Below are positions 1,997-49,598 of a DNA stretch of 64,000 nucleotides, one piece after another. The notes below the pieces were generated by a model. It worked only from the letters and a program-made list of their open reading frames with translations, was not told where the DNA came from and ran no database searches. The stretch's first letter is position 1. Every line of letters starts with the position of its first letter. This stretch comes from Minisyncoccota bacterium (lineage in GTDB: Bacteria > Patescibacteriota > Minisyncoccia > Phycocordibacterales > CAJBRS01): assembly GCA_035652395.1 (NCBI GenBank), contig DASRDX010000009.1, positions 62,642 to 126,641 of the forward strand, given 5' to 3'. A program made the translations under genes and the position numbers.

Positions 1997-2082
1997 CACG
2001 CCAGAGCTCTCACTTTGTTTGAGACCGCTCCAGGGGCGCTTGCCCGAGTCTTAGTCTCAAACAAAGTGAGAGCTCTGGCGTG
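1997..2082. repeat. Perfect 29-bp inverted repeat (arms 1997-2025 and 2054-2082, 28-nt spacer) between RNase J stop and MFS start
   Basis: CACGCCAGAGCTCTCACTTTGTTTGAGAC ... GTCTCAAACAAAGTGAGAGCTCTGGCGTG read directly. It sits 13 nt upstream of the MFS ATG on the minus strand. No clear U-tract follows on either strand. Confidence 0.6.
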
Positions 2083-8417: not shown

Positions 8418-8450
8418 TTTAAAAGGGCCGCCGAAGGCGGCCCTTTTAAT
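8418..8450 (+). terminator. Intrinsic terminator after groEL
   Basis: GGGCCGCCGAAGGCGGCCC hairpin followed by TTTTAAT. Confidence 0.7.
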
Positions 8451-12124: not shown

Positions 12125-12305
12125 TTTGTTTAAAAATCCGAGGGGATTCGCCCGCGAGTAAATTTTTGCTACCCGCAAAAATTTCTCTGGGCACCGGCTC
12201 GCGGCCTCGCGTGCTCGCTCGGCATCCGCTCCGCCATTCGAATCCCTCCCTCTCAGAGTCAGACGCCTTGCCGCAGAGTGATGCAGATCACTCTTTGCAA
12301 GTCGT

Positions 12306-12394
12306 TGCGGAGAGGGAGGGATTCGAACCCTCGGTACCCTTACGAGCACACAGACTTTCCAGGTCTGCCCATTCAACCACTCTGGCACCTCTCC
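12306..12394 (-). tRNA. tRNA-Ser (anticodon GGA), type II with long variable arm
   Basis: The reverse complement reads GGAGAGGTGCCAGAGTGGTTGAATGGGCAGACCTGGAAAGTCTG...GGTTCGAATCCCTCCCTCTCCG. Anticodon stem CAGAC/GTCTG, loop CTGGAAA. Confidence 0.85.
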
Positions 12395-20440: not shown

Positions 20441-20454
20441 GATCGTGGAATTAA

Positions 20455-20487
20455 AAAGAAAGGGCCGCCGTCGGCGGCCCTTTCTTT
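20455..20487. terminator. Bidirectional terminator
   Basis: AAAGAAAGGGCCGCCGTCGGCGGCCCTTTCTTTTT between convergent genes. Confidence 0.7.
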
Positions 20488-20492
20488 TTCCC

Positions 20493-25365: not shown

Positions 25366-25396
25366 GATTAAAGGCGCCGGCAAAGCCGGCGCCTTT
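25366..25396 (+). terminator. Intrinsic terminator
   Basis: AAAGGCGCCGGCAAAGCCGGCGCCTTTAAT. Confidence 0.7.
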
Positions 25397-25719
25397 AATA
25401 TAAAAATATAAAAGGAAACGACCGCGGCCCAGAGGCAGCGGTCGTTTGTTTCGAAGTGGTTGCAATGTCTGGTCAGCGGGTCGACCTCAGAAAACACGAT
25501 AGTAATACACTGGATTACTGCCTACTCGTTATCCTTAGTTGATCGGCATCTCGAGACAAGTTGTGCGAAACGTCCTTTGCTTCGAACATTGGTCTAGACA
25601 AGGTCTAGACCGTCGGATCGTGGCAATGGAGCATTGGTCTAAATAGATATTCTACAGAGGAATAAGATTTTTACTAGCCAGTTTTCCACACCATCACTTT
25701 TCTTTGCTATAATCGATTT

Positions 25720-32511: not shown

Positions 32512-32546
32512 TTGCAGCAAAAAGGCGGCCGTGAGGCCGCCTTTTT
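32512..32546. terminator. Bidirectional terminator shared by nrdB (+) and RNase P RNA (-)
   Basis: AAAAAGGCGGCCGTGAGGCCGCCTTTTTGA, a hairpin with A/T runs on both sides. Confidence 0.75.
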
Positions 32547-32552
32547 GATTTG

Positions 32553-32962
32553 TTTCTCTTTGGATCTGTAAGCCGAATTCTGTGCGAGATAGGCGAAGTC
32601 GCTTTTCTCGTGACAATTATTTATCTGGGCCAGCTGTTACCAGCCGGCTCTAGCGGCACCCCCAGCCGTAGTTTTGAGATTTTAAAACAAAACTACGGTT
32701 GGGTACGGCCTTGCACAGGGGTAAGGATTTTGCCGTTTCACTCCCGAAATTACTTTCGGGCTTCGCCCTACAGACCATTCGCCTGTAGAGCGGCGGTTTT
32801 CTTTCGAAAACCGCCGTTTCTGTTCGCACCTCTTGGATTGCTCCAGACGGGCGTTACCCGCCACCTTTTCAAATTAATGAACTGTGTTCGGACTTTCCTC
32901 CCAATCATTTCTGACCGAGCAATTGTCCAATTCAAAGAGGCTAGAAGTATAATATAGGCCGT
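32553..32962 (-). ncRNA. rnpB: RNase P RNA, bacterial type A
   Basis: The minus strand carries GGGAGGAAAGUCCG (P4 5' strand, rc of 32889-32902), GGUAACGCC, GUGCGAACAGAAACGGCGG, and a 3' region CUGGCCCAGAUAAAUAAUUGUCACGA...CACAGAAUUCGGCUUACAG matching E. coli M1 RNA CUGGCCUAGAUGAAUGACUGUCCACGACAGAACCCGGCUUA. The region contains many nested hairpins. Exact ends are uncertain. Confidence 0.8.
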
Positions 32963-43383: not shown

Positions 43384-43456
43384 GCCGAGGTAGCTCAGTT
43401 GGTAGAGCATTTGCCTGAAGAGCAAGGGGTCGCCGGTTCGAGCCCGGCCCTCGGCA
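43384..43456 (+). tRNA. tRNA-Phe (anticodon GAA)
   Basis: GCCGAGGTAGCTCAGTTGGTAGAGCATTTGCCTGAAGAGCAAGGGGTCGCCGGTTCGAGCCCGGCCCTCGGCA. Confidence 0.9.
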
Positions 43457-43500
43457 CTAAAATAATAACCGCCAATTCTAATTGGCGGTTATTATTTTAG
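43457..43500. terminator. 21-bp perfect palindrome after tRNA-Phe (bidirectional terminator-like)
   Basis: CTAAAATAATAACCGCCAATT CT AATTGGCGGTTATTATTTTAG. Confidence 0.6.
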
Positions 43501-43607
43501 TGCCGTAAAGTCCGTATAGCTTAAGCAATTATGTGGCAAGAAGCTATTAACCTCCAAAATTCAAACAATGAGAAGTATTTTCCGGCCCTCGACTTTGTAT
43601 AATTGAT

Positions 43608-45452: not shown

Positions 45453-47581
45453 TTAGAATTGCTTGGCCAACTTGCTACCATTAGCAGATCACTCTGGGCG
45501 GTTTCTTTTGGCAAAAATGACCATATTTCTTCCGTAATGAAAGGCATGAATGGATGGAGAAGTGCTAAGGATTTTTTTAAAAGGTGGCGTAGAAACCATT
45601 GTGTCCCTAGGGGGTTTTCTTTTAAGGTAGTCTTGCTTTCCTCGATTATTTTATCAGCAAAAGTGTGCCAGATATAGTGGTAGATATTTTCAGCGGCTAA
45701 ATGAAATTGAAAATTTTCAAAATAATTTGTCACCTCCTTCAGCAGTTTATTAAACTCCGTCAATTGTTTCTGTTGAAGTTCACTTAATTTAAGCTCCCCG
45801 GATTCTTGATAGTTTTCTGAGTTAGTTAAAACAAATCGGGCGATATTCCAGATTTTATTGGCAAAGTTCTTATAGCCGCGAATTTTATTTTCGTCTAATG
45901 ACATGTCACTGCCCGGAGGATTACCAACGATCAAAGCCATTCGCAAAGCATCCGTACCGTACTTTTCAATTAGCTCGAGCGGACTGACGACGTTGCCTTT
46001 ACTCTTGGACATTTTCTTACCCTTAGAATCATTAACTAATCCGTGAAGATAAACATGTTGAAAGGGGACTTCTTTAGCGAGATAGAGTCCGAAGATCACC
46101 ATTCGCGGAATCCACTTAAAGATTAAATCATAACCGGATTCCATTACCGAGGTAGGGTAAAAAGTCTTAAAATCAGACTGATCGGGGAAACCTAAAGTAA
46201 TGAGTGGCCATTGTCCGGAAGAAAACCAAGTATCGAATGTATCGGTGTCGGCAACCATGGCGCCACCACATTTTGGGCATTTCCGAATAGAATCATCCAA
46301 ATCGGGAAAAGCTTCTCCGCATTCCTGACAAATTTTGGCCGGAATGGGGATGCCCCAGACAATCTGGCGGGAAATATTCCAGTCAATAGTGTTCTCCATC
46401 CAGTAAGTAAAAATCTTCTTATAATTTTCAGGATGAAAAATTACTCGGTTTTCTTCAGCCGCTTTTAAAGCCAAATCGGCCAAGGGTTTCATTTTCACAA
46501 ACCATTGGGGCAATTCTCGAGGTTCAATAATCGTCTCGCATTTATAACAGACGGGAACAGGGTGGGTGTAGTCTTCGATTTTTTCAATTAAATGCATGGA
46601 TTCAAGATCAGCCACTACCTGTTTGCGAGCCTCCAGCACTTTAAGACCTTTATACTTGCCAGTCTTTTCGTTTAGTCGGCCAAACTGATCAATGACTTCC
46701 TTTTTCGGCAAATTATGTCGAGCGGCAATTTCAAAATCATTTTTATCGTGCGAAGGAGTAATTTTTAAAGCGCCTGTGCCAAATTCCATTTCTACGGCTG
46801 CGTCTGCAACTACTGGAAGATCCATCTGACCAATCGGTGTTTCTACCGTAATGTTTTGACCGATATATTTTTGATATCTGGAATCTTCCGGATTAACCGC
46901 TATCGCCCCATCTCCGAACATTGTCTCCGGTCTAACCGTGGCAACTACCAACGGTCCATATTTTAGATAATAGAGTTTATCCGTCATTTCTTTGGAGACC
47001 GTTTCTACGTCGGAGAGGGAAGTCTGATGTTTCGTGCACCAGTTTACCAGCCGACTGGCACGGTAAATCAAACCATCGTCAAACATTTTTTTAAAAGTCT
47101 GGTGGACAGTTTTGATGACGTCGGGATCGAGGGTAAATTTTTCACGTGACCAGTCGCAGGAAGCCCCCAGAGCGCGGATTTCACTCTCCATTTTTTTCTT
47201 GTTTTCCTGAGTAAAGTTATAGATTTCCTGATAAAGCTCTTTTGGATCCATCTTGAACCGGGATCGGCCTTCCTTTTCCAGCTTTTTCTCATAAACAATC
47301 TGGGTTTCAAAACCGGCGTGATCGGCGCCAGGAAGCCAGAGAGTTTTAAAGCCTTGCATTCGTTTGTATCGGATCATCAGGTCTTCCAGTGTCGTGCCTA
47401 AAGCATGACCGGCGTGAAGATGGCCGTTGGCGTTAGGTGGCGGCATGATGATAGTGAAGGGCTCTTTTCGATCATTTGGAAGCTTGTCGGGATTAAAAAA
47501 ACCGCTCGCTTCCCAGATTTGGTAAATGCGAGACTCTGTTTCTTTTGGATTGTAGGGCTTTAGGAGTTTCTCGGGGATCAT
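45449..47581 (-). CDS. valS: Valyl-tRNA synthetase (short form lacking the C-terminal coiled coil)
   Basis: PPPNANGHLHAGHA (HIGH), KMSKSKGN (KMSKS), an editing-domain segment, and zinc-knuckle CxxC pairs. Confidence 0.85.
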   Translation of the reverse strand: MIPEKLLKPYNPKETESRIYQIWEASGFFNPDKLPNDRKEPFTIIMPPPNANGHLHAGHALGTTLEDLMIRYKRMQGFKTLWLPGADHAGFETQIVYEKKLEKEGRSRFKMDPKELYQEIYNFTQENKKKMESEIRALGASCDWSREKFTLDPDVIKTVHQTFKKMFDDGLIYRASRLVNWCTKHQTSLSDVETVSKEMTDKLYYLKYGPLVVATVRPETMFGDGAIAVNPEDSRYQKYIGQNITVETPIGQMDLPVVADAAVEMEFGTGALKITPSHDKNDFEIAARHNLPKKEVIDQFGRLNEKTGKYKGLKVLEARKQVVADLESMHLIEKIEDYTHPVPVCYKCETIIEPRELPQWFVKMKPLADLALKAAEENRVIFHPENYKKIFTYWMENTIDWNISRQIVWGIPIPAKICQECGEAFPDLDDSIRKCPKCGGAMVADTDTFDTWFSSGQWPLITLGFPDQSDFKTFYPTSVMESGYDLIFKWIPRMVIFGLYLAKEVPFQHVYLHGLVNDSKGKKMSKSKGNVVSPLELIEKYGTDALRMALIVGNPPGSDMSLDENKIRGYKNFANKIWNIARFVLTNSENYQESGELKLSELQQKQLTEFNKLLKEVTNYFENFQFHLAAENIYHYIWHTFADKIIEESKTTLKENPLGTQWFLRHLLKKSLALLHPFMPFITEEIWSFLPKETAQSDLLMVASWPSNSK

Positions 47582-48165
47582 TAGGAAAATTCTAGCAAAA
47601 ATAAGGGTTTTTTGGAATTGGGAGGGCGGCGAGCTTCGCTCGCCGCCCTTTATATAAAAGAAAAGAGCCGCATAATTTCATTTGTCAATCATGAAATTAT
47701 GCGGCTCGGCAAGTTGGTAAGTCTATCGAGCACTTCAACCAACTGCAGCGGTCCGTGGTGCGAAAACCATCTGTGACTCAGAGCTTGCGCCGGGGCGATA
47801 AGCGAAGGCGCTAAAAAGTCGACTCGGAGTCACAGCAAGAGAAATCCCGTCCCCGCGTCGCCAAGTTAGTCGATGCCAGCGATGGTCTGCTAGCCGGCGA
47901 CGCGGGGTTGCATTCCTCTGCGATAAGTCAGGGCCAGATCTAATCGGCTGGCACAAGGTCATCAACAAGACTAATCGCAGGTATCGATGCCGACTAAATG
48001 TCGGCGAAAATGTTGCGAGGGTTCTACGTCGCCAAGGTTAAGATGGTTGCGATAGTAAATAGTAAACAAATTAGCACCCTTTTCCTAACCCGAACCCTCG
48101 CCGATGAGAAATCGTCAAAGTCCAAATTCTCCTATAGTATAGCACATTCTAAAAAATAGTCAAGA
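47582..48165 (-). promoter_or_regulatory. Long structured leader/ncRNA between tsaD and valS with promoter TTGACT-16-TATACT (48163-48136) and an intrinsic terminator (47715-47665, 17-bp stem plus UUUUCUUUU)
   Basis: There is no ORF. Multiple long-range inverted repeats occur, e.g. CCCCGCGTCGCC/GGCGACGCGGGG, GCGAGGGTTC/GAACCCTCGC, TGTGACTC/GAGTCACA. The terminator is immediately upstream of valS. Confidence 0.45.
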
Positions 48166-48177
48166 GGGGCGCCGGCC

Positions 48178-49364
48178 TTATTTTAAAGCCAGATTTCCAG
48201 TTGCTTTGAAATCCAAGGAAGCCGATTTTTTGTTCAAATAATTGAAATATCCGGCTACGGCAATCATGACGGCGTTATCAGTAGAGAGAGATGAATGAGG
48301 AATTAAGAGTTCGGAATCAGGAAAGTCTAAAATCAGGGCCTGAAAAGCTTCCCGAATATGTTTATTGGCAATAACTCCACCTCCAACAATTAAAGTTTTG
48401 GCGCCAAATTCTTCCAGCGCCCGTTTAGTTTTTGAGACCAAGACTTCAGTTACGGCTTCTTCGAACTCTCTGGCCAGTTGAACTTTCCAGTTTGGGTTTT
48501 CTTTTTCAGTATTTGTCATACTGCGTAGACGATAAAGAACTGCCGTTTTTAATCCGGCGAAAGAGAAATCATAATCTTTGGATTTGATCATCGGTCGCGG
48601 CAAGTTGGCAATTGAACCGCCACCGTGCCGCGCCCGTGCTTCTTCTGCCAATTTTGAAATCTCCGGCCCGCCAGGATAGGGCAGTTCCATCATTCGAGCC
48701 ACCTTGTCAAAAGCTTCGCCCACGGCATCATCTCGGGTCTGTCCGAGAATTTCGTATTTCTGCCAGTCTTTCATCAAAACCAGTTCCGTATGACCGCCGC
48801 TGATAAGAAGAGCAACTGCTGGAAATTTAAAACTCTCAACTTTTAACTTTGAATTCTCCGATTTTGTCAGATCGGATTCTAAAAGAACTGACAGAATGTG
48901 TCCTTCCATATGATTGACGGCCACCACTGGCAAATCCCAGACTATCCCTAAGACCTTGGCAAAATTGATTCCTACCCAGAGAGCCGGTTCCAAGCCCGGG
49001 CCAACAGTAACGGCGATCGCTTCAAGGTCAGGTTTTGGTAGAGCCGGAAGTGCTGCTAGAAACTGTCGCAGCAATTCCGGCTCTCTTTCTAGAATTTTTT
49101 CAATCTCTTCTTGATTGAATTCTACTTTCAACTTTTGACTTTTAACTTCTGACTGGTCAAAAATCTTCTTTAAAAGAGGGATGAGATTTTTAGCATGCTC
49201 TCTCTTGGCCATCATCGGAAACACGCCTCCATATTTTTCATGGATTTTTGTTTGAGAATTAAGAGCTTCGGCCAAGATCTTGAAATGCGGCTTCGCGCCT
49301 CCTTCCGCTTCCACAATCGCCAAAGCCGTCTCATCACAGCTAGTTTCAATACCAAGAATTTTCA
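48178..49364 (-). CDS. tsaD: tRNA N6-threonylcarbamoyladenosine synthase TsaD (Kae1/YgjD family) with an internal ~40-aa insertion
   Basis: MKILGIETSCDETALAIV and HMEGH... signatures. The true start is the ATG at 49364, because the longer six-frame ORF overlaps tRNA-Val. Confidence 0.85.
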
Positions 49365-49366
49365 TT

Positions 49367-49439
49367 GTGCGCGGTGAGGGATTCGAACCCCCGGCATCAA
49401 CAACGTCAATGTTGCGCTCTACCAACTGAGCTAACCGCG
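49367..49439 (-). tRNA. tRNA-Val (anticodon GAC)
   Basis: rc: GCGCGGTTAGCTCAGTTGGTAGAGCGCAACATTGACGTTGTTGATGCCGGGGGTTCGAATCCCTCACCGCGCA. Confidence 0.85.
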
Positions 49440-49524
49440 CCTTTTATGAAATTTACCATTTTTCGGCGATAGAGGAAAAAGTTTTACCACAGTTTGCCAC
49501 ATACCTTGGAGTATCGGGCCTTCT

Positions 49525-49598
49525 TGCCATAGAATTACTCTTCACCTCTAACATCAACCACGTCAATGTTGCGCTCTACCAATTGAGCTAATCGCCCT
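49525..49598 (-). pseudogene. Truncated tRNA-Val 5' half followed by TAATTCTATGGCA-containing sequence
   Basis: rc of 49549-49598 is GGGCGATTAGCTCAATTGGTAGAGCGCAACATTGACGTGGTTGATG, then TTAGAGGTGAAGAGTAATTCTATGGCAAGAAGGCC. There is no T-arm. Confidence 0.6.

What the first reader, a model, noticed from the sequence alone, without database searches (positions are those of the whole stretch)
47582..48165. ~500-nt highly structured transcribed region with its own promoter ending in an intrinsic terminator immediately upstream of valS
On the minus strand, tsaD ends at 48178. It is followed by a near-consensus promoter, TTGACT-16-TATACT (48163-48136), and about 470 nt of ORF-free sequence full of long-range inverted repeats. 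The stems include 12 bp CCCCGCGTCGCC/GGCGACGCGGGG, 10 bp GCGAGGGTTC/GAACCCTCGC, GCCGAC/GTCGGC and TGTGACTC/GAGTCACA.

A strong terminator, GAGCCGCATAATTTCATgattgacaaATGAAATTATGCGGCTC plus TTTTCTTTT (47715-47665), then a second hairpin (47650-47625), lie about 45 nt before the valS ATG. This is the layout of a transcription-attenuation leader for an aminoacyl-tRNA synthetase (T-box-like logic). I could not find the canonical T-box motif AGGGUGGNACCGCG. It could instead be an independent ~480-nt ncRNA. I found no tmRNA hallmarks (5' GGGG acceptor, 3' T-arm/CCA).
Basis: partly seen in the sequence, partly recalled or inferred. Interest (0 to 1): 0.6.

Follow-up and report, generated by a model that had tools for sequence, protein, structure and literature searches.

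The report
Orphan structured RNA gene beside valS
Between tsaD and valS in an uncultured Paceibacteria (CPR) genome sits a self-contained unit of strong promoter, about 470 nt of hairpin-dense non-coding sequence and a strong terminator; it looks like a lineage-specific RNA gene of unknown function, not a T-box-type control leader for valS.

Summary
On the minus strand the region has a near-consensus promoter (TTGACT-16-TGc-TATACT, 48163-48136). About 470 nt follow with no credible ORF, raised GC (0.55-0.585 against 0.435) and dense hairpins (MFE -214 kcal/mol, z = -8). It ends in a 17-bp terminator with a U-tract (47707-47656), followed by a second 12-bp hairpin.

The T-box/attenuator reading fails:
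- No Rfam family matches, even at E<=10, and the T-box motif is absent.
- The terminator has no competing antiterminator (21 kcal/mol gap).
- valS has its own extended -10 (TGCTAGAAT) 7 nt before its ATG. The same leaderless layout occurs in 86 of 134 related valS loci (2.8 expected).
- Most relatives have only 10-60 nt between tsaD and valS. Others carry unrelated protein genes there.

One relative (L081, ValRS 70% identical) has a comparable promoter, structured RNA (z = -9.7) and terminator at the same site, with no sequence similarity. No homolog of the window's RNA was found, so covariation cannot be tested.

Best reading: an independent, probably strongly expressed, orphan structured ncRNA gene in a variable genomic slot. 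Its function is unknown. A non-functional hairpin-rich insertion remnant is the main rival. Interest is moderate to low.

The parts
48136..48163 (-). Promoter of the RNA unit: -35 TTGACT, 16-nt spacer ending in TGTGC (extended -10), -10 TATACT. The inferred transcription start is near 48129.
   Evidence: 10 of 12 matches, TG present. (the only such full promoter in 64 kb). The start site is inferred from the usual 7-nt distance after the -10.
47656..48129 (-). Predicted RNA body of about 470 nt: ORF-free, GC 0.51, a string of six hairpin domains plus the terminator.
   Evidence: fold, z = -8. (GC 0.51, against 0.49 for RNase P RNA and 0.435 for the window). (no credible ORF). (no Rfam family).
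48015..48101 (-). Domain 1: an 87-nt hairpin with a 10-bp perfect base (GCGAGGGUUC/GAACCCUCGC), a 9-bp second helix with two G-U pairs, and a 10-nt internal loop on the 3' side (UGGCGACGUA).
   Evidence: (I8).
47989..48005 (-). Domain 2: a small hairpin, GCCGAC-AUUUA-GUCGGC.
47918..47980 (-). Domain 3: a hairpin CUGCGAUUAGUC/GACUUAUCGCAG (11 of 12 pairs) enclosing an inner GCCAG/CUGGC hairpin.
   Evidence: (I7).
47838..47919 (-). Domain 4: an 82-nt rod made of an 8-bp base (AGAGGAAU/AUUUCUCU), a 13-bp GC-rich helix (CCCCGCGUCGCCG/UGGCGACGCGGGG) and a 6-bp tip.
   Evidence: (I5).
47771..47835 (-). Domain 5: a hairpin CUGUGACUC/GAGUCACAG with further inner helices.
   Evidence: (I4).
47709..47746 (-). 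Domain 6: a hairpin GUUGGU../..ACCAAC immediately before the terminator.
47656..47707 (-). Intrinsic terminator: a 17-bp perfect stem, a 9-nt loop, then UUUUCUUUU. It is constitutive, with no competing antiterminator.
   Evidence: I1. (dG -27.2 kcal/mol; the best alternative is 21.4 kcal/mol worse; pair probability 0.99).
47623..47649 (-). Second GC-rich hairpin (12 bp, GAA loop) between the terminator and the valS promoter. It resembles this genome's usual terminator hairpins, and its T-rich tail lies on the plus strand. It is probably an insulator or bidirectional terminator. Whether it belongs to the RNA is uncertain.
   Evidence: I2. (dG -26.3 kcal/mol). (many similar GC-stem, 3-nt-loop hairpins at gene ends in the window).
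47589..47597 (-). valS's own extended -10 promoter, TGCTAGAAT, 7 nt upstream of the valS ATG (47581). It implies a leaderless valS mRNA. It is not part of the RNA unit but sets its downstream limit.
   Evidence: the same element 3-12 nt before the ATG in 86 of 134 related loci against 2.8 expected; the commonest distance is 6-7 nt.

Best explanation
The tsaD-valS spacer holds a self-contained transcription unit on the minus strand. A near-consensus housekeeping-type promoter (48163-48136) drives an ORF-free, GC-enriched RNA of about 470 nt made of six hairpin domains. The RNA ends at a constitutive intrinsic terminator (47707-47656).

valS is transcribed separately, from its own extended -10 placed 7 nt before its ATG, as a leaderless mRNA. 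The structured RNA is therefore not its 5' leader. tsaD has no terminator of its own, so tsaD transcripts probably also run through the element and stop at the same terminator.

The unit sits in a variable slot of an otherwise conserved block (ftsA-ftsZ-trxB ... tsaD-[X]-valS-prsW-hsp20). X is empty in most relatives, holds unrelated small protein genes in some, and holds a different structured RNA cassette in at least one.

I read it as a stand-alone, lineage-specific (orphan) structured ncRNA gene that is probably abundantly expressed. It probably acts in trans, by binding protein or RNA, rather than controlling valS in cis.

Shown: the sequence elements, the excess of structure, the absence of known families, the absence of an antiterminator, the clade-wide valS promoter, and the variability of the slot.

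Inferred: that the unit is transcribed, the transcript ends, the strand, and any function.

The confidence of 0.5 is for a functional stand-alone ncRNA gene. The narrower claim, an independent unit that is not a valS leader, I put at about 0.8.
For: - Promoter: and it is unique in 64 kb. It matches the consensus better than the RNase P RNA promoter I read by eye (TTGCCT-17-TATACT) in the sequence.
- Terminator.
- Structure: z = -8 with the centroid close to the MFE.
- Composition: GC 0.51-0.585 in a 0.435 genome, like RNase P RNA at 0.49. This is the highest GC of all spacers of at least 200 nt in the window. Long, GC-rich spacers in AT-rich genomes are the established search criterion for structured ncRNAs (GC-IGR approach, PMC6429828, PMC8632094).
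- Non-coding: no credible ORF or protein family.
- valS independence: the valS leaderless promoter is a clade-wide feature.
- Positional analog L081: TTGACA-16-TGc-TACACT overlapping the end of tsaD, a 430-nt ORF-free RNA with z = -9.7, a terminator, then the valS promoter. Decayed or coding fillers of the same slot in other relatives have z between about -4 and +2.6.
- Distant relative L034: a third cassette with promoter, structure and terminator.
Against: - No homolog was found anywhere. The nearest genomes are only about 70% identical in ValRS, and nothing matched in 175 related loci by blastn or nhmmer. Phage and plasmid records gave only short chance-level matches. Two stem patterns gave no match in viral contigs. 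There is therefore no covariation and no evidence of selection on structure.
- The stems are almost all perfect Watson-Crick (8 G-U among 138 pairs). The antisense strand folds as well. This pattern also fits young or DNA-level palindromes.
- The window as a whole is rich in perfect hairpins (85 against 15 expected).
- The three positional analogs share no sequence or motif.
- No expression data are available.
Confidence: 0.5

Rival explanations
1. A non-functional insertion remnant. The slot between tsaD and valS repeatedly takes up foreign cargo. Here the cargo has decayed or was never functional, leaving hairpin-rich, GC-richer DNA with a leftover promoter and terminator.
For: - The slot holds unrelated cargo in relatives: a 145-aa protein in L169, a 219-aa secreted protein in L174, various ORFs on either strand elsewhere, and nothing in most.
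- The element is an orphan.
- The stems are near-perfect, with few G-U pairs and no strand asymmetry.
- Nested short inverted repeats flank the whole spacer: AAAATAAGG/CCTTATTTT and TTTTTTAGAAT/ATTCCAAAAAA (I11 and I9).
Against: - Decayed or coding fillers of this slot are not unusually structured (z about -4 to +2.6), whereas this one has z = -8 to -10.
- The best promoter in 64 kb and a 17-bp terminator are both intact.
- By my own knowledge, CPR genomes are small and gene-dense, so about 600 nt of junk is unusual.
- There are no extra copies in the window and no similarity beyond short chance-level matches to phage or plasmid records.
- Flanking inverted repeats of 9-11 nt, AT-rich, are about what chance gives in 640 nt.
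Confidence: 0.25
2. A transcription-attenuation leader (T-box-like or other riboswitch) that controls valS by regulated read-through of the terminator.
For: - The layout is promoter, long structured region, terminator, then an aminoacyl-tRNA synthetase gene on the same strand.
- A GUA triplet lies in the 10-nt internal loop of domain 1.
- tRNA-Val(GAC) is encoded just upstream of tsaD.
Against: - No T-box or riboswitch model matches, even at E<=10.
- The T-box 14-mer is absent.
- No antiterminator exists: the terminator wins by 21 kcal/mol.
- A second strong hairpin follows the terminator.
- valS has its own promoter 7 nt from its ATG, as in 86 of 134 relatives, including 30 of 37 where tsaD ends no more than 60 nt upstream.
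- The element is absent from almost all orthologous loci.
- A GUN triplet in a 10-nt loop is expected about 40% of the time.
Confidence: 0.04
3. A highly structured mRNA for a small membrane peptide, type I toxin-like. The ORF at 48125-48024 (TTG start) encodes the 33-aa peptide MDFDDFSSARVRVRKRVLICLLFTIATILTLAT, preceded by AGGAG. The remaining structure would control its translation and stability.
For: - The ORF has a 17-residue hydrophobic C-terminus, and an AGGAG lies 3 nt upstream.
- The fold pairs the 5' end (AUAGGAGAA) with the terminator tail. This recalls the 5'-3' fold-back of hok-type mRNAs (own knowledge).
Against: - The predicted start site (about 48129) falls inside the AGGAG, so the promoter's own transcript lacks it.
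- The start codon is TTG, with only 3 nt of spacing.
- No analogous peptide occurs in L081.
- No antisense promoter was detected.
- No family match.
Confidence: 0.06
4. Chiefly a long structured 3' UTR of tsaD (and a source of 3'-derived RNA) rather than a gene with its own promoter.
For: - There is no terminator between the tsaD stop (48178) and the element.
- The first terminator after tsaD is at 47707-47656.
Against: - The near-consensus promoter sits directly after the tsaD stop.
- In L081 it overlaps the end of tsaD.
- Most relatives have no such 3' extension.
- This reading is compatible with, rather than exclusive of, the best explanation.
Confidence: 0.1

Closest known systems
Orphan or rare large structured ncRNA candidates found as long GC-rich intergenic regions in AT-rich bacterial genomes (GC-IGR approach; PMC6429828, PMC8632094, PMC11109978)
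   Same: A long (596 nt) spacer with the highest GC of the window's spacers, a strong predicted structure, its own promoter and terminator, no ORF and no known family.
   Different: Those candidates are accepted on conservation and covariation across many representatives. This one has a single representative and none of that support.
T-box riboswitch leaders of aminoacyl-tRNA synthetase genes (Rfam RF00230)
   Same: A position upstream of valS on the same strand, and a structured region ending in an intrinsic terminator.
   Different: - No model match and no T-box sequence.
- No antiterminator.
- About twice the usual length.
- valS has its own promoter and no leader.
- Not conserved at orthologous loci.
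Multi-hairpin trans-acting regulatory RNAs such as Staphylococcus aureus RNAIII (514 nt, 14 hairpins) (own knowledge)
   Same: Its size, its beads-on-a-string hairpin architecture, a strong dedicated promoter, a Rho-independent terminator and a narrow phylogenetic range.
   Different: - No sequence or model similarity.
- No recurrent loop motif such as C-rich anti-SD loops.
- No regulator or target is known.
- The resemblance is in form only.
Housekeeping stable RNAs (tmRNA, 6S, SRP RNA, RNase P RNA)
   Same: A strong promoter, GC enrichment and dense structure. The size is near that of tmRNA or RNase P RNA.
   Different: - No covariance-model or ARAGORN match.
- RNase P RNA is elsewhere in the window (32553-32938).
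- These RNAs are conserved across relatives, and this one is not.

Membership tests
T-box riboswitch leader (RF00230) | Match to the family covariance model (Stem I with K-turn and distal loops, Stem III, antiterminator) | tested here: not met
   No hit at gathering score over the whole window. No hit even at E<=10 on 47400-48400 with relaxed filters.
T-box riboswitch leader (RF00230) | Conserved 14-nt T-box sequence (AGGGUGGNACCGCG) forming the antiterminator bulge | tested here: not met
   With up to 3 mismatches the window has 6 matches (7.3 expected). None lies in 47582-48177.
T-box riboswitch leader (RF00230) | Mutually exclusive terminator and antiterminator helices | tested here: not met
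   The terminator is -27.2 kcal/mol. The best fold with its 3' arm blocked is 21.4 kcal/mol worse and uses only a few pairs of the 5' arm. Pair probability is 0.99.
T-box riboswitch leader (RF00230) | Specifier codon for the cognate amino acid (GUN) displayed in a Stem I internal loop | tested here: inconclusive
   GUA occurs in the 10-nt internal loop on the 3' side of domain 1. A GUN in such a loop is expected about 40% of the time, and no other Stem I feature is present.
T-box riboswitch leader (RF00230) | The element is the 5' leader of the regulated mRNA | tested here: not met
   valS has an extended -10 (TGCTAGAAT) 7 nt before its ATG. The same arrangement occurs in 86 of 134 related loci against 2.8 expected. 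This rests on promoter consensus, not on mapped transcripts.
T-box riboswitch leader (RF00230) | Conservation upstream of orthologous genes | tested here: not met
   Most relatives have 10-60 nt between tsaD and valS. No blastn or nhmmer match in the related loci held at the time (80; 168).
tmRNA | tRNA-like acceptor/T-arm ends plus a tag reading frame (ARAGORN; Rfam tmRNA models) | tested here: not met
   ARAGORN finds no tmRNA in the window. No Rfam tmRNA hit at E<=10.
6S RNA / SRP RNA / RNase P RNA | Match to the family covariance model | tested here: not met
   RNase P RNA is at 32553-32938 (142.7 bits).
Stand-alone bacterial ncRNA gene (operational definition) | Own promoter and own intrinsic terminator flanking an ORF-free segment | tested here: met
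   (promoter). (terminator). (no credible ORF).
Stand-alone bacterial ncRNA gene (operational definition) | Predicted structure beyond chance | tested here: met
   z = -8.0, 0 of 100 shuffles as stable. The antisense strand is equally stable.
Stand-alone bacterial ncRNA gene (operational definition) | Conservation with covariation of base pairs | tested here: inconclusive
   No homolog exists in the data reachable, so covariation could not be assessed.
Stand-alone bacterial ncRNA gene (operational definition) | Detected transcript with defined ends | not testable with these tools
   No transcriptome data are available.
Csr/Rsm-type protein-sponge RNA | Many repeated GGA (or other) motifs displayed in hairpin loops | tested here: not met
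   The k-mer analysis shows no GGA enrichment. The only mild excess is UAUCGC, 3 times.
Type I toxin-antitoxin locus | A translatable small hydrophobic ORF plus an antisense RNA | tested here: inconclusive
   A 33-aa ORF with a hydrophobic tail exists. Against it: a TTG start, an SD cut by the predicted start site, no antisense promoter and no analog in L081.
Repeated mobile element (MITE/REP-like) | Multiple copies in the genome and terminal inverted repeats | tested here: not met
   No second copy in the 64-kb window. The flanking 9-11-nt inverted repeats are at chance level. The rest of the genome could not be searched.

The most novel reading that the evidence does not exclude
The tsaD|valS junction of Paceibacteria may be a hotspot that hosts interchangeable, strongly promoted, fast-evolving large structured RNAs. 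The window, L081 and L034 each carry a different one. Together they would form a previously unrecognised class of lineage-specific large ncRNAs in CPR bacteria, with sequence turnover that hints at a role in conflict or in host-symbiont interaction.
Probability: 0.12. Interest if true: 0.7.

Novelty: new member of a known kind. Interest (0 to 1): 0.35.

Why it matters
CPR/Patescibacteria have tiny, gene-dense genomes, and almost nothing is known about their non-coding RNAs. An RNA of about 470 nt driven by the best promoter in 64 kb would be a significant investment for such a cell. It would also be a candidate new RNA family.

The negative result matters too. valS in this clade appears to be a leaderless gene with its promoter abutting the start codon. 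T-box-style control of this synthetase is therefore unlikely here.

With a single representative and no expression data, the practical value is as a lead for transcriptomics rather than as a finding in itself.

Tried and rejected
- **T-box or other riboswitch, tmRNA, 6S, SRP, introns.** Rfam gave nothing at gathering score or at E<=10. ARAGORN and the T-box motif search were also negative.
- **Antiterminator.** A constrained fold shows none.
- **Protein-coding gene or pseudogene.** ORF listing, Pfam at E<=1, stop-codon recoding, and tblastn of relatives' slot ORFs against the element found nothing.
- **Extra copies or a mobile element.** Self-blast of the window found none. Phage and plasmid records gave only short chance-level matches. 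Two two-arm stem patterns gave zero hits in viral contigs.
- **Homologs in relatives.** blastn and nhmmer found none in the related loci held at the time, 80 and 168; the seven loci fetched later (L169-L175) were checked only at the slot. The loci came from one GTDB scan, one metagenome scan and contig look-ups. The protein database shows no genome closer than about 70% ValRS identity.
- **Source contig.** Exact look-ups of the window's own ValRS and TsaD found no record, so population variants of the same species could not be obtained.
- **Homology among the positional analogs.** MAFFT, local alignment, shared k-mers and three-way motif searches matched only the promoter.
- **sRNA pairing with valS.** The 9-nt complement UUAGGAAAA/UUUUCCUAA lies upstream of the inferred leaderless valS start and inside a helix of domain 1, so I rejected it.
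- **Csr-like repeated loop motifs.** None.
- **attC-like sites.** The core sites do not fit (read from the sequence).
- **Strand discrimination by G-U content or energy.** Uninformative.

Full report
**Source and context.** The window comes from a Paceibacteria (Parcubacteria, CPR/Patescibacteria) genome. Its ValRS is 100% identical to a protein named 'MAG TPA: valine--tRNA ligase [Candidatus Paceibacterota bacterium]' on a 462,702-nt contig. The next best of 5.8 billion clustered proteins is only 70-71% identical. The organism therefore has no close sequenced relative, which limits every comparative test below.

The genes around the finding, all on the minus strand, are:
- tRNA-Val(GAC), 49440-49367
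- tsaD, 49365-48178
- the 596-nt spacer, 48177-47582
- valS, 47581-45449
- a PrsW-family protease gene, 45452-44688
- an HSP20 gene, 44677-44183

.

**Checking the observation.**
- Promoter: the scan reports TTGACT-16-TATACT at 48163-48136 with TG before the -10. A regular-expression search of both strands shows it is the only TTGAC-spacer-TGnTAnnnT promoter in the 64 kb. It matches the consensus better than the promoter I read upstream of the RNase P RNA gene (TTGCCT-17-TATACT).
- Stems: the named stems are confirmed.
- Terminator: a 17-bp perfect stem at 47707-47665 with a 9-nt loop, -27.2 kcal/mol, followed by UUUUCUUUU.
- Second hairpin: 12 bp at 47649-47623, -26.3 kcal/mol.
- Fold: the 516 nt from 48135 to 47620 fold to -214 kcal/mol against -157 +/- 7 for dinucleotide shuffles (z = -8.0). 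The centroid is close to the MFE.
- Hairpin density: five of the window's 85 perfect hairpins of at least 9 bp lie in this 0.9% of the sequence.
- Composition: GC reaches 0.55-0.585 against 0.435 for the window. This is the highest of all spacers of at least 200 nt. The RNA body at 0.51 resembles RNase P RNA at 0.49.
- Coding: the longest ORF is a 77-aa, Arg-rich reading frame with a TTG start. No ORF matches Pfam at E<=1, and recoding a stop codon does not open a gene-sized frame.

One caveat applies. The antisense strand folds as well (z = -8.9), and only 8 of 138 predicted pairs are G-U. Thermodynamics therefore does not choose the strand. The minus strand is chosen because the promoter and the U-tract are on it.

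**Is it a valS leader?** Five independent lines say no.
1. Rfam 15 finds nothing here at gathering scores. At E<=10 on a 1-kb slice it finds only chance matches to the two terminal hairpins. There is no T-box, riboswitch, tmRNA, 6S or SRP hit. ARAGORN finds no tmRNA.
2. The T-box 14-mer is absent from the region even with three mismatches.
3. The terminator has no competitor. With its 3' arm blocked the best fold is 21.4 kcal/mol worse, and its pairing probability is 0.99. A second strong hairpin follows it.
4. valS has its own promoter. TGCTAGAAT (47597-47589) ends 7 nt before the ATG and there is no Shine-Dalgarno sequence, which is the layout of a leaderless mRNA. This is a clade-wide feature. 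Among 134 non-redundant related valS loci, 86 have TGnTAnnnT 3-12 nt before the ATG, most often at 6-7 nt, against 2.8 expected from shuffled upstream sequences. That includes 30 of the 37 loci where tsaD ends no more than 60 nt upstream.
5. The element is not conserved. tsaD-valS adjacency is common in relatives, but the gap is usually 10-60 nt. Neither blastn nor nhmmer finds the sequence in the related loci held at the time of the searches, 80 and then 168.

**What occupies this position in relatives.** The window shares a long syntenic block with several genomes whose ValRS is about 70% identical: ftsA, ftsZ, thioredoxin reductase ... tsaD, X, valS, prsW, hsp20. X varies:
- L169: a 145-aa protein gene with a GGAGG ribosome-binding site and its own terminator.
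- L174: a 219-aa secreted protein.
- More distant genomes: assorted unrelated ORFs on either strand.
- Most genomes: nothing.
- L081-L083, three contigs from different samples with identical sequence: a cassette built like the window's. It has TTGACA-16-TGc-TACACT overlapping the end of tsaD, about 430 nt with no credible ORF, a fold of -178.7 kcal/mol with z = -9.7, a terminator with seven U's, then the valS extended -10.
- L034, a Taylorbacteria genome: a third cassette with TTGACA-17-TATATT, about 240 nt and a 14-bp terminator.

Slot fillers that are coding or look decayed have z between about -4 and +2.6. The extreme structure is therefore specific to these cassettes.

The three RNAs share nothing detectable beyond promoter consensus, and Rfam knows none of them. 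They may be independent acquisitions or descendants diverged beyond recognition. I cannot tell which.

**Best explanation.** This is a stand-alone transcription unit for an orphan structured RNA of about 470 nt, with six hairpin domains (coordinates in 'parts'). It sits in a variable slot and is insulated from the leaderless valS promoter by a strong terminator and a second hairpin. tsaD lacks its own terminator, so its transcripts probably end at the same site.

The anatomy of the unit is shown. Its transcription, transcript ends and any function are inferred. The strong promoter, the GC enrichment and the extreme fold in a streamlined genome make a functional, abundant, trans-acting RNA the most likely reading. 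I put that at about 0.5. I put 'an independent unit, not a valS leader' at about 0.8. I cannot name a partner or target. There is no reverse transcriptase, Cas, IscB/TnpB or transposase gene among the neighbours scanned, no repeated loop motif and no convincing complementarity to valS.

**Rivals.** The main rival (0.25) is a non-functional hairpin-rich insertion remnant. It is favoured by the orphan status, the near-perfect stems without strand asymmetry and the turnover of the slot. It is disfavoured by the intact best-in-window promoter and terminator and by the contrast in z-score with other slot fillers.

A type I toxin-like structured mRNA for the 33-aa peptide with a hydrophobic tail (48125-48024) is possible but weak (0.06). 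A pure tsaD 3' UTR (0.1) is compatible with the main reading. The attenuator reading is at 0.04.

**Novelty and interest.** The element matches no described RNA family, so it would found a new family if real. With one representative it is best filed as a new, unvalidated member of the familiar kind 'stand-alone bacterial structured ncRNA gene'. Interest is moderate to low (0.35). It would rise if transcriptomics showed an abundant RNA, or if the slot proved to be a general home for fast-evolving large RNAs in CPR bacteria (novel case, probability about 0.12).

Noticed in passing
window 47581-47597; loci L001-L168 upstream of valS: valS in Paceibacteria looks leaderless. An extended -10 (TGnTAnnnT) ends 6-7 nt before the ATG in 86 of 134 non-redundant loci (2.8 expected), even where the promoter must lie inside the 3' end of tsaD. 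In the window, 24 of 124 such motifs have an ATG 4-10 nt downstream.
   Followed up: yes
window 49365-49440: The tsaD ATG (49365) starts 2 nt after the 3' end of tRNA-Val(GAC) (49440-49367, minus strand). tRNA 3' processing would leave tsaD as an essentially leaderless mRNA.
   Followed up: partly
window about 49550-49597 (minus strand): A partial, slightly diverged copy of the 5' two-thirds of tRNA-Val(GAC) (GGGCGATTAGCTCAATTGGTAGAGCGCAACATTGACGTGGTTGATG...) lies about 110 nt upstream of the intact gene. It is a decayed duplicate or an integration scar.
   Followed up: no
window 1997-2082 and 2121-2141: A 29-bp perfect inverted repeat with a 28-nt loop, followed by a 9-bp GC hairpin, lies in the roughly 160-nt spacer between two minus-strand genes. 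This is the most over-structured 240-nt stretch of the window (residual z = -4.7).
   Followed up: partly
window 12237-12254 / 12310-12327 and 43452-43505: Long perfect hairpins involve the 3' ends of tRNA genes. One is an 18-nt inverted copy of the tRNA-Ser(GGA) T-arm/acceptor end, 55 nt away. The other is a 25-bp hairpin that starts inside the 3' end of tRNA-Phe.
   Followed up: no
whole window: There are 85 perfect hairpins of at least 9 bp against 15 in shuffles. Many are GC-rich stems with 3-nt loops flanked by A- and T-tracts at gene ends (for example 20453-20489, 8419-8449, 25367-25399, and 32518-32547 just after RNase P RNA). They appear to be this genome's standard, often bidirectional, terminators.
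   Followed up: partly
L081 9506-9967; L034 2217-2490: Two other Paceibacteria carry different cassettes of strong promoter, highly structured ORF-free RNA and terminator between tsaD and valS (z = -9.7 and about -16.6 for the whole gap). Neither matches any Rfam family or the other.
   Followed up: partly
window 48024-48125 (minus strand): A 33-aa ORF (TTG start, AGGAG 3 nt upstream) encodes a peptide with a 17-residue hydrophobic C-terminus, inside domain 1 of the RNA.
   Followed up: partly
L081 20348-20467: A SAM-I riboswitch (45.2 bits, just above the gathering score) lies upstream of a Cys/Met-metabolism PLP enzyme and ATP-sulfurylase operon in a CPR genome.
   Followed up: no
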